From: an uncultured Methanosarcinales archaeon | GTDB lineage: Archaea; Nanobdellota; Nanobdellia; Woesearchaeales; CAZYIM01 | Direction: 5' to 3' | DNA: 38,038 nt | Assembly: GCA_964647565.1 (NCBI GenBank) | Contig: CAZYIM010000030.1 | Span: 1-38,038, forward strand | In this document: positions 3,001 through 6,000 of the stretch, in pieces | Layout: every line of letters starts with the position of its first letter | Numbering within the stretch: position 1 is the stretch's first letter | Made by a program: the position numbers

Positions 3001-6000
3001 TCTTGACAGGATTCATTTGAACTTAGCCTCCAATTCCTGCTTCAGCTTGTCGCCGATAAACTCTCCCTTGAAATAGTCAACCTTGGCTGCAATCGATATC
3101 TTGTCTGCCAATGCTCTCGAAGCCTTGCCTTTTTCATTCTTTTTGACCACTGCAATCAGATGATGGTTCACAATATGTCCATGTTTAGGTGCTTTTGCAC
3201 CTGTACGAACATGCCTAAACAGTGCTTTTTCAGCACCAAGGAGCTGTATTGTTGAACTTGACATAGAAGATAAGCGTTTTAAAGACCCTGCCTCATTAAG
3301 CAGCTTAGCCCCAATCAAAGCACCTGCAAGAGCCAAGACATTAGGACAATAGCCTTTCATGGTCTTTTCAAGGTATTTTTCAAGAGAATCTCTTAGTTTA
3401 TACAATTCACCTGCCTTTGTGGCAAGCTCTTTCATTGGCTCCAGATCCTCTTTCAACTCCTTACCCATTGAATCCTTTATCTTGAGCTCTGCCATCAACG
3501 TTTTCTTGTCTTTTTCAAGCACAAGCCTTACAAAGGCTTCATTGTCAGCTATGCTCTTGTACAATTCAGGAAAATAGAGTGCATACCAATCCCTAAGCCT
3601 CTTTGCCAGAGCATTGCACACTTTATTTAGTTCTTCTACGGTTGTAATAGCATGACAGATATAATTATCTTCAGTCACAGATTCCTTTATCTTCTGCTTA
3701 GCCAGCTTGATGCTCTCTTCTCTTATCTTTTTAAAGTCAGGCATGGTGCTGGGAGATGGGTTTTCATTTATAAAGTTAGCTCTTTAATAATTTTTTACAA
3801 CTTTTTTATATTAAAAAAAAAAACCGAAAGTCTGTCAAATGGCATAGCCATTTTCCCCAACTTCCAATTTTTATCACTTTTCAGTGATAAAAATCGAAAG
3901 CTTTATAAACTAAAAACACCATAAATAGAGTATAAATCGCGAATTAGATTAAAATGGGGCCAGAAAACAAAAGGATACCGAAAATAAAGGCAAATAGCTA
4001 TAAAGAGATTCTTAAGTATTTTGAAATCTACAAGCTATATGAGAATTTTGCTGCCAAGTCCATGTTCTATACATTCTCAGATAAATTGCATTTCTATAAT
4101 CCGAGAGACAGCATACTAGAGATGATTGTTGACAGGAAACAGCATCCACGACTGTTCAAGAAGGCTCTTGAGCTTAAAAAATATGTCAATCTTTCAGATC
4201 TGGTTAAGGAACCGCAGAAAGAAAAAGAAAGAAAGTTCTACTATAATATCAGCAGACCCGACCTTCAGTTAAAGCTAGGCTTTGGTAAAGCCATATACGA
4301 TTTCTTTCCCAAGATGGACCGTTTCAAATTCGAGAATTATTTCCTTAAAAAAGATACTACCTGTTTGGATGCATTGCATAGGCTAAGGCCTCAGCATTCT
4401 GATCCTGAAAAAAGCAAGGAGATCTTAAAACAAGTCATAGATCTCTTCCCAGCCCAATTCAGTATGGGTTCCGAGTATCTGGATAAGATCATTGCCAACA
4501 GCATGTTAAAGACAGAGGTCATGAAACAGAAAGAGTTGCCTGTAAAACGAAAGGGCATCCTCAGGCTAGATGTTAACAGGAAAAAAAGAAAACAGGCAAG
4601 AAAAAGAGCAAAACAAGGACAATTCATCTCAAAACAGCAATATATTGATCAGGGATTCACTCATGATTACAAGTTCATATGCGAGGTTGTGGACAATGAC
4701 AACCGAAAATTCAGGTATTTCATGAAAAACGTACAAGGTTTCTCTAAGCCACATTATGAAAAAGCAGTTACCAAATTAGTAAGCAAAGTTATCAAAAAAT
4801 ATAACTTCACACATGTATCAGTCCCACAATTCAGGGCTTCTGCATATACCCTACCAGGCATTAAAAAAGTGCTGCACAAGATGAATAGGCATAATGCCAT
4901 CCAAGTCATGCTACAGGATTCTAACAAGGTCTATAACCTGCCCGCCCAGTATCTCAATGCAGACGGCAAGCTTAATATCCAAGGCATTTCAAAACTTGAG
5001 GAGATGTGCACGCCAGACAGGAACTTCCTGGTGTTCGAGCTCATGACAAATGGTGAGCTGCTTACTAACAGACTGGACAGGCAAAGACACGCGCCAAATA
5101 GGAGATTTGAGATATTCAAGAACCTTAATGATGTTGTTATAGACATGCAGTATGTTCTTTATGCAGAAGTCAAAAAACAGGCACCATCACTTCCAGAAGC
5201 AGACTATAAAATAGATTTAAAACGCTCAGTAGGAAAAGGAATGGCTGACAGAAAATTCTTTAGATTGTTCAACAAGCTGTTTGGCAATAAACTTAATGAA
5301 TACTACAACAGGAAAGATGGTTGGGGTAAAGGCAACTCCATCAATAAGGCATTCTGCCATAATGACCTAAACCCTGGTAACCTCAATGTCTCAGATTATC
5401 ATAACAGTCATAAATTTGAGATTGCAGACTGGGAAGCCGCAGGATATGGTCTTGGATTTAATGACCTGGTCAAATATGCATACAGCAGCAAAAGCCTGCT
5501 AAGAGGTAAGAGACAAGAAGTCATTGATGACTTTATTGTCAAGCGCTTCAAAGACATTGCATATGAAAAGCTTTCCAAGATCAAGAAAAAGCACAAGAAA
5601 GCTAAGAAAATGGAGACTCGTGCTAGGAAAAAATTCAAGAAAGCAAAAACCCTAGATGAAAAAAGAAAGGTCAATAGGCAAATCAAGAAGTGGAGCGAAA
5701 TCAAGGAATTCTATGACTTGAATGAAGCCAAGATAGAAAATTTCAACACAGAGAATATCCAGTATCATGTAGGCCAGGTTCTAGGCAAGAGATATGAGAA
5801 CAAATACGGAAGAGCATATGTTGGTGAAGCCAGAGATCTTGTCAAGATGACTATGATCTACAGCAAGATAAGATCAGCGGGAATAACTTATCATGCCGCT
5901 GAGAAAAACAATCTCTTTGGAGCTGGCAACTCTGAATTGCAATCTATAAGGAAAAATCTGAAAAGCGCATATACTATGACTAATTATTTCTTGAACAAGG

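What a model noticed while it worked through the whole genome (the two positions that open the first line are those of the whole stretch)
3745..3953. TGM-like palindromic operator at a fixed distance from the TATA box
A palindrome TAYYAC-N6-GTRRTA lies 12-14 nt upstream of the TATA box in at least two dozen promoters, mostly of lineage-specific genes, marking a second global regulon that resembles the TrmB-family TGM site but with a 6-nt spacer.
Evidence so far: Strict palindrome: 9 genome matches with spacer 6, all intergenic, against 1-2 for each spacer 2-5, 7, 8; relaxed: 14 intergenic against 1-2. Of 47 upstream hits 23 lie 12-14 nt before a TATA-like run. Half-sites recur in many promoters.
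(Added by a program. Inside this text positions count along the whole contig: contig position 1 is position 1 of the stretch shown here. "Call 12" and the like, gene names such as g00115 and contig names such as C1 are that model's own, and its searches are not shown. The text may have been shortened before it was handed on; [...] marks where a part breaks off. The agent that wrote the report below was given it as the finding of a first reader that could run no searches.)

Follow-up and report, generated by a model that had tools for sequence, protein, structure and literature searches.

The report
Class-wide DPANN master regulator site
A 20-base DNA switch sits at a fixed spot beside the promoter of about one in eight promoter-bearing genes of this small symbiotic archaeon and recurs across its class, marking a shared programme of mostly unnamed accessory genes that is probably run by one conserved TrmB-type regulator pair.

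Summary
Confirmed, and larger than reported. The motif is TwAYYACT-N4-AGTRRTwA (16 bits). It lies 12-14 nt before the TATA box at 122 of 931 gene promoters, with smaller peaks over the BRE and near the transcription start. It occurs in 152 of 161 sampled genomes of the phylum (Woesearchaeota and sister orders).

Targets are mostly soluble orphans: 22 of 118 have a Pfam name, against 67 of 100 controls. None is glycolytic, so this is not the TGM regulon.

The best candidate reader is a pair of TrmBL2-like proteins with a near-invariant recognition helix, found in 160 of 161 genomes. One paralogue carries the site at its own promoter in 18 of 19 cases (neighbouring promoters 1 of 163). About 35 accessory TrmB paralogues have private operators at the same distances from TATA. 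Binding is inferred, not shown. Activation versus silencing is open (about 55:40).

Boldest reading: a host-attack programme. An anti-sigma-like family carries the site (12 of 19), but sigma-70 and GGDEF genes mostly do not. I found no paper on the motif and no earlier scan note on it.

The parts
3869..3892 (.). Palindromic site (core 3872-3889), centre 21 nt upstream of the first T of TATA; 23.4 bits
3895..3901 (+). BRE-like element CGAAAGC
   Evidence: matrix learned from 1237 upstream regions
3902..3909 (+). TATA box TTTATAAA
3954..6098 (+). Target gene, 714-aa orphan with no Pfam or NCBIfam match; by eye it has a phosphotransferase-like H-x-D / D-W-E pattern (not tested)
3013..3744 (-). 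nop5 (Nop domain), divergent neighbour with its own TATA at 3767-3774; not a target of the site
7161..7184 (.). Weaker site (9.4 bits) between the AbrB/PhoU-like gene (6100-7008, -; family by eye) and the secreted-orphan cluster starting at 7222
30954..30977 (.). Site at -24 from the TATA of the small RHH gene; 14.7 bits
30740..30910 (-). 57-aa ribbon-helix-helix-type gene (by alignment and eye), a recurrent target, coupled to a 691-aa APH-family gene (28702-30777)
31051..31074 (.). Site at +21 from a weak TATA; 13 bits
31662..31685 (.). Site at -20 from the TATA of orphan gene 31725-32231; 17.5 bits
34547..34570 (.). Site at +22 from the TATA of a - strand gene starting at 34525; 17.4 bits

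Best explanation
The palindrome is the binding site of a class-wide global transcription factor of Woesearchaeota and their sister orders. The factor is most likely the conserved pair of TrmBL2-like winged-helix proteins (G000 C10:49198 'Q' and C10:11983 'K').

Shown from sequence: the motif, its three positions relative to TATA, its class-wide spread, the character of its targets, and its presence at the regulator's own promoter.

Inferred: (1) A dimer reads two half-sites one helical turn apart. (2) Bound at -21 to -23, just upstream of the BRE, it helps TFB/TBP assemble and switches on about 120-135 mostly orphan, soluble, leaderless genes, including Q itself (positive feedback) and small RHH second-tier regulators. 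(3) Bound at +21/+22, over the start region, it blocks RNA polymerase at 20-35 genes, many of them also under a local regulator. The sign of the -12 sites is unclear. The result would be a two-state switch between a housekeeping state and an accessory-gene programme.

Odds: regulon real 0.97; reader is the core TrmB pair 0.7; activation at -22, given that, about 0.55-0.6.
For: Position and spread: (365 matches vs 16 reversed-pattern controls in 40 relatives; 100 vs 9 in 36 genomes of other orders).

Reader:
- Core TrmB found in 160 of 161 genomes, usually as two copies. Helix P-R-S-R-x-Y-D in 80 of 80 relatives.
- Q-type promoters carry the -21..-23 site in 18 of 19 and the 19th has a -12 site; K-type 6 upstream and 11 at -12 of 60; neighbouring promoters 1 of 163.
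- In two genomes (one genus) with a single diverged copy and chance-level upstream sites, a perfect site still lies behind the TATA of that gene.
- Accessory TrmBs place their own operators at -20..-22 (33 of 59) or -10..-14 (20 of 59) from their TATA, within a search window of -26..-9. Operators covary with the helix. Those with an R-S-R helix show TAGT-containing half-sites by eye (3 cases).
- Published TrmB-family sites contain TACT/TCAC half-sites (PMC4158304).

Sign: TrmBL1 activates upstream and represses downstream of the promoter (PMC4706686). TFB-RF1 activates from just upstream of the BRE (PMC5937170). Seven G000 sites sit at the same distance from two divergent TATA boxes.
Against: - No binding or expression data.
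- Target promoters have stronger, not weaker, BRE and TATA scores (5.56/9.35 vs 4.63/8.32), whereas TFB-RF1 acts on weak BREs.
- The closest solved relative, TrmBL2, binds without sequence specificity and represses (PMC4158304, PMC8707338).
- Accessory TrmBs have their operators at -21 from their own promoter, which may mean that -21 represses.
- The accessory operators have the GT-containing half-site on the left arm, the reverse arrangement of the global site.
- The regulator is nearly universal, so co-occurrence cannot discriminate. G055 has 3 pattern matches and no core TrmB found (98% complete, 110 contigs).
- The tree is the quick one, and related genomes are not independent.
Confidence: 0.5

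Rival explanations
1. Same reader, opposite sign: the core TrmB pair is a sequence-specific silencer. It holds strong promoters of foreign or costly genes shut from any of three positions (-22 next to the BRE, -12 on it, +22 on the start) until a signal releases it.
For: Target promoters have strong BRE/TATA. Targets look foreign: GC3 0.346 vs 0.388, P=1e-9, and mostly orphan. TrmBL2 is proposed as a xenogeneic silencer (PMC8707338). The site at the regulator's own promoter moves among -22, -12 and downstream positions, which is simplest if all are negative autoregulation. -21..-23 is also the closest placement that does not overlap the BRE sequence.
Against: Published sites wholly upstream of the BRE activate (PMC4706686, PMC5937170). 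A 3-nt-wide peak holding 133 sites fits a stereospecific contact.
Confidence: 0.3
2. Another conserved factor, not yet identified (Lrp/AsnC, AbrB-like or other HTH), reads the site. The core TrmBs are non-specific chromatin proteins, and Q is merely a target.
For: The core proteins match TrmBL2 best. Lrp genes also carry sites. I did not list every conserved regulator of the class.
Against: The helix differs from TrmBL2's (A-P-R-T-Y-D vs R-S-R-S-Y-D) by an Arg at the position that tracks operator type in accessory paralogues (C-run operators in 5 of 34 Arg-first vs 20 of 25 others). The site persists at the core gene across orders.
Confidence: 0.13
3. The small RHH proteins read the site.
For: All 4 G000 copies have high-scoring sites; 10 of 17 parsed RHH loci do. 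Sulfolobales aCcr1 is an RHH linked to AGTATTA (search listing only).
Against: A small RHH was found in only 19 of 30 motif-rich genomes and not in G061 (100% complete, 17 sites) or G137 (98%, 17 sites). Its beta-strand residues vary. It has a separate AGTA-TAC element behind its TATA.
Confidence: 0.04
4. The element is a remnant of a mobile cassette or recombination site that carries a promoter to new genes.
For: Targets are non-orthologous between genomes.
Against: Flanks of the 122 promoters are no more alike than controls (mean identity 0.308 vs 0.299). The motif occurs at three distinct offsets and at orthologous promoters across orders. A viral-contig scan gave 24 hits, 23 of them scoring 9 bits or less.
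Confidence: 0.03

Closest known systems
TrmBL1/Tgr and the Thermococcales glycolytic motif TATCAC-N5-GTGATA (PMC4706686, PMC4158304; passages read)
   Same: Palindrome with TCAC/TACT-type half-sites, upstream or downstream of BRE-TATA, global scope, autoregulation, TrmB-family candidate.
   Different: Spacer one base longer. Sites are mostly upstream (133 vs 25) and fixed to 3 nt, whereas TGM sites are 75% downstream and upstream ones lie up to 156 bp away. About 200 sites vs 28 promoter sites. No glycolytic targets. The regulator has no sugar-binding subdomain.
TrmBL2 of Thermococcales (PDB 5BOX/5BPD/5BQT)
   Same: Best full-length structural relative (E=3e-19); same length and domain layout; linked to foreign genes.
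   Different: TrmBL2 binds without sequence specificity. Here the helix has R-S for A-P and a defined motif is proposed. NCBIfam score 79.7 vs cut-off 530. Two conserved paralogues.
TrmB (TACT-N3-AGTA) and halobacterial TrmB (TACT-N7-8-GAGTA) (PMC4158304)
   Same: TACT/AGTA half-sites.
   Different: Spacer N4; those proteins sense sugars through a C-terminal domain that is missing here.
TFB-RF1 (PMC5937170; passages read)
   Same: Palindrome immediately upstream of the BRE.
   Different: Two operons with weak BREs, against more than 120 promoters with strong BREs; different motif.
hrp box / PIP box of plant-pathogen secretion regulons (recalled, no call)
   Same: One conserved promoter signature over a fast-turnover, non-orthologous gene set.
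   Different: An effector role and a delivery route are not shown here; archaeal transcription machinery.

Membership tests
TGM / TrmBL1 regulon | Site TATCAC-N5-GTGATA | tested here: not met
   1 genome match with N5, in a coding region; the enriched spacer is N6
TGM / TrmBL1 regulon | Targets in sugar uptake, glycolysis, gluconeogenesis | tested here: not met
   None among 22 named of 118 targets; PGI, Rpe and TreT fall in the no-site controls. One GlgC-like target in G144.
TGM / TrmBL1 regulon | Regulator is a TrmBL1 orthologue with sugar-binding residues G320/E326 | tested here: not met
   Candidates are 267-270 aa; NF047390 score 60 vs cut-off 650
TGM / TrmBL1 regulon | Sites both upstream and downstream of BRE-TATA | tested here: met
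TrmB family regulator | PF01978 winged-helix domain with Y-D in the recognition helix | tested here: met
TrmB family regulator | Site at the regulator's own promoter | tested here: met
   18 of 19 Q-type and 17 of 60 K-type promoters
TrmB family regulator | Direct, specific binding to the palindrome | not testable with these tools
   Needs EMSA, footprint or DAP-seq
TrmBL2 chromatin protein | Equivalog score | tested here: not met
   79.7 and 72.5 vs cut-off 530
TrmBL2 chromatin protein | Abundant, non-specific DNA binding | not testable with these tools
   Needs proteomics and binding assays
TFB-recruiting activator (TFB-RF1 type) | Site abuts the BRE | tested here: met
TFB-recruiting activator (TFB-RF1 type) | Weak BRE at target promoters | tested here: not met
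   BRE score 5.56 vs 4.63 in controls

The most novel reading that the evidence does not exclude
The site marks a host-attack programme of Woesearchaeota and Pacearchaeota-type archaea that live on bacteria. One TrmB switch would turn on a fast-turnover set of soluble proteins that act inside or on a bacterial cell, and the motif would be a genome-wide finder for them.

For: an RsbW/SpoIIAB-like anti-sigma kinase family carries the site in 12 of 19 own promoters (2 were discovery cases). Bacterial release-factor homologues carry it in 2 of 2 (1 discovery; that one has GGS in place of GGQ). Further targets are a lone CheB in a genome where no chemoreceptor was found, an AmiA-like amidase, tandem Fis- and OmpR-type helix domains, Fic, GGDEF and a T9SS tail. 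Only 1 of 122 targets is a multi-pass membrane protein.

Against: sigma-70 genes 1 of 11 and GGDEF genes 2 of 10; the flavin-reductase control had only 5 scorable promoters (0 of 5; pooled P=0.14); among orphans the excess of soluble proteins is marginal (78 of 96 vs 21 of 33, P=0.055); no host or delivery route is known.
Probability: 0.25. Interest if true: 0.95.

Novelty: new variant of a known kind. Interest (0 to 1): 0.78.

Why it matters
Woesearchaeota and their sister orders are abundant and almost entirely uncultured, and my searches found no regulator-site pair described for them. This gives a class-wide motif, a named candidate reader and a simple in vitro test. It also groups more than a hundred orphan genes per large genome into one co-regulated set, and suggests that a TrmBL2-like chromatin protein can become a sequence-specific master regulator. 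If the set is a host-attack programme, the motif makes the open question 'do DPANN archaea have bacterial hosts?' (posed in PMC8204110) directly testable. The helix-operator code of about 90 accessory TrmBs is a natural specificity library.

Tried and rejected
- TrmB dimer with TFB core, complex prediction: no answer, score 0.00; not used either way.
- RNA runs: no RNA holder listed, so no reads were laid.
- Rfam on the window: no match.
- Viral contigs: 24 hits, 23 scoring 9 bits or less, treated as chance.
- The +29 peak (11 sites) is the mirror of -22 on a palindromic TATA and was discarded. The N9 and N3 spacer excess comes from the TAC-TAC periodicity of the half-site.
- 'Accessory TrmB paralogues read the global site': rejected, since each has a private operator.
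- 'RHH reads it' and 'mobile remnant': see rivals.
- Presence/absence correlation with the core TrmB: uninformative, the gene being nearly universal.
- 'All bacteria-only regulators are in the regulon': not supported for sigma-70 and GGDEF.
- A very relaxed pattern had high control counts in AT-rich genomes and was read only qualitatively.
- The careful tree did not finish; the quick tree was used.
- Genomes outside the phylum could not be searched.
- Literature: ten searches; none listed a paper on this motif. The library lacks most subscription papers. I read no supplements; Supplementary Table 3 of PMC8204110 may bear on the anti-sigma-like family.

Full report
1. Observation. Window 3872-3889 is TATCAC-N6-GTGATA, 12 nt before TATA 3902-3909 and its BRE, in front of the 714-aa orphan at 3954. 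The window is contig C30 of G000, 2.68 Mb in 86 contigs, 87% complete. The closest relatives of its core TrmB lie in records mostly titled Woesearchaeota or Nanoarchaeota; those titled Methanosarcinales nest among them in the tree. The strict pattern gives 9 matches at spacer 6 and 0-2 at others.

2. The real motif. Iterating a palindromic matrix over 2261 intergenic stretches converged on 228 sites and the consensus TwAYYACT-N4-AGTRRTwA, 16 bits. Shuffles gave 15.8 positions at the threshold that gives 233 real ones. At 14 bits the N4 spacer has 159 hits, N7 43, N1 20 and the others 4 or fewer. Against 1358 TATA boxes found with a separately learned matrix, centres cluster at -21..-23 (133), -12 (23) and +21/+22 (25), with one site between -11 and +14. 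Of 931 genes with an assignable promoter, 122 have the upstream site, and the score distribution is bimodal. The held-out test gave 59 of 425 against 6 and 2. The -12 class holds up when only the left half-site is scored (19 at -12, 2-10 at neighbouring offsets). Promoter flanks are not copies of each other.

3. Spread. YYACT-N4-AGTRR-N14-16-TTTAWA matched 40 of 40 order relatives (365 vs 16 reversed controls) and 152 of 161 phylum genomes, including 28 of 36 from other orders (100 vs 9). Several genomes with no strict match show relaxed matches with a clear BRE. Five genomes with a single diverged core TrmB show only chance-looking ones (read by eye). Other phyla could not be tested.

4. Targets. 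I scanned 118 of the 122 targets, and 100 controls drawn at random from the 313 no-site promoters in the fetched regions (150 were drawn, the first 100 scanned). Pfam named 22 of 118 against 67 of 100 (P=3e-13). Core information-processing genes were 0 of 118 against 16 of 100 by my hand count. Multi-pass membrane proteins were 1 of 122 against 99 of 731, and GC3 was lower. In relatives, 25 of 74 and 16 of 82 targets were named. These include a few information-type genes (a LysRS-like protein, endonuclease V, a helicase, and gyrB at a long distance), so the exclusion is not absolute. Among 315 pooled target sequences from 17 genomes (some duplicated), most have no match in another genome. The recurrent families are the core TrmB, small RHH proteins, a secreted S26-like protein (5 genomes), a coiled-coil protein, a small acidic protein, Fic, GGDEF and an anti-sigma-like kinase.

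5. Which protein reads it. G000 has 40 TrmB matches over the Pfam cut-off. Two are a conserved pair, found in 160 of 161 genomes, mostly in two copies, with helix P-R-S-R-x-Y-D in 80 of 80 relatives. On a quick tree of 79 proteins, the 19 Q-type genes have the upstream site in 18 and a -12 site in 1. The 60 K-type genes have 6 and 11. Neighbouring promoters have 1 of 163. Two single-copy genomes of one genus keep a perfect site between TATA and start codon of the gene; the other three single-copy genomes do not clearly.

The other paralogues sit in divergent pairs and have private palindromes (96 of 116 loci parsed, 91 accessory). In the 59 with a clear operator it lies at -20..-22 (33) or -10..-14 (20) from their own TATA, the two upstream positions of the global site. 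Same-helix paralogues share operators (identity 0.59 vs 0.44, 0 of 500 permutations). The global site is a second layer in these pairs: 35 of 91 have it upstream, mostly at +19 to +36 of the partner's TATA. Lrp-type divergent pairs show it too. So it is read by a factor other than the local ones. The RHH is a target, but a small RHH was not found in 11 of 30 motif-rich genomes. This makes the core pair the best candidate. It is inference: no binding was measured.

6. How it works. Precedent says a site just upstream of the BRE activates and one over the start represses (PMC4706686, PMC5937170; passages read). The 3-nt peak and the sites shared symmetrically by two divergent promoters (7 in G000; more) fit that. 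With Q under its own site this would be a positive-feedback switch. Against it: target promoters are strong; TrmBL2 is a repressor proposed to silence foreign genes (PMC4158304, PMC8707338; passages read); and the autoregulatory site shifts among three positions. The signal is unknown; the protein lacks TrmB's sugar-binding subdomain.

7. What the programme is for. Named targets include several proteins whose usual partners exist only in bacteria. As a prospective test I fetched the 30 best loci each for GGDEF (88 of 201 genomes), HATPase_c_2 (29 of 201), sigma-70 region 2 (77 of 201) and flavin reductase (30 of 101), and all 3 release-factor loci (3 of 161). Among genes with their own scorable promoter the site was present in 12 of 19 anti-sigma-like, 2 of 2 release factors, 2 of 10 GGDEF, 1 of 11 sigma-70 and 0 of 5 controls. 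Three of the positives were discovery cases, and most other loci were operon-internal or cut off. Support is therefore partial. PMC8204110 (passages read) reports sigma-70 in Woesearchaeota, found no anti-sigma factor, and leaves bacterial hosts open.

8. Comparison and novelty. It works like the TrmBL1/TGM system but fails membership on motif, targets and regulator. Ten literature searches listed no paper on this motif. Papers seen only as search listings, such as the aCcr1 papers, are not relied on. Four look-ups of earlier scan notes showed none on this motif. Verdict: a real, class-wide global regulon; a new variant of a known kind; reader probable; sign and purpose open.

Noticed in passing
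G000 TrmB loci L003-L030 and L257-L342 (G129, G149, G117, G116): Large expansion of accessory TrmB paralogues (up to about 35 per genome) in divergent pairs, with a reproducible helix-to-operator code: R-R-N helices with TGTGGT arms, R-T-N with TTGTCT, S-first helices with C-run/G-run arms.
   Followed up: partly
window 30740-30910; L343-L362: Small RHH gene cassette: upstream global site, leaderless start, a conserved TAGTAATAC-like element behind the TATA (probable own operator), and translational coupling to unrelated downstream genes.
   Followed up: partly
L078:1560-2573 (G124): Diverged bacterial RF-2-like protein in an archaeon with GGS in place of the catalytic GGQ, under the site; two other genomes have GGQ versions.
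   Followed up: partly
L545-L574: A family of about 200-aa RsbW/SpoIIAB-like proteins across the class, although PMC8204110 found no anti-sigma factor in DPANN. A separate 320-aa subfamily (L568, L573, L574) has its own upstream palindrome, ACCGG-N4-5-CCGGT-like.
   Followed up: partly
phylum sample: Sigma-70 region 2 in 77 of 201 and GGDEF in 88 of 201 genomes; many sigma proteins are 400-900 aa, and several lie a few kb apart on one contig.
   Followed up: no
window 7222-10904: Five adjacent secreted-looking orphans whose predicted signal peptides are followed by Gln, as in Bacteroidota (rule recalled, not tested), opposite an AbrB/PhoU-like regulator.
   Followed up: no
window 21550-27694: Three adjacent genes with a C-terminal PEP-utiliser mobile domain; not examined.
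   Followed up: no
K-type core TrmB promoters, e.g. L195, L211, L234, L241, L255, L001: A half-site AGTAGT directly follows the TATA box in many K-type promoters, in addition to any upstream site.
   Followed up: no
G000 C1:145143 (L138:9340-9939): Stand-alone CheB methylesterase under the site, in a genome where no MCP domain was found (87% complete).
   Followed up: partly
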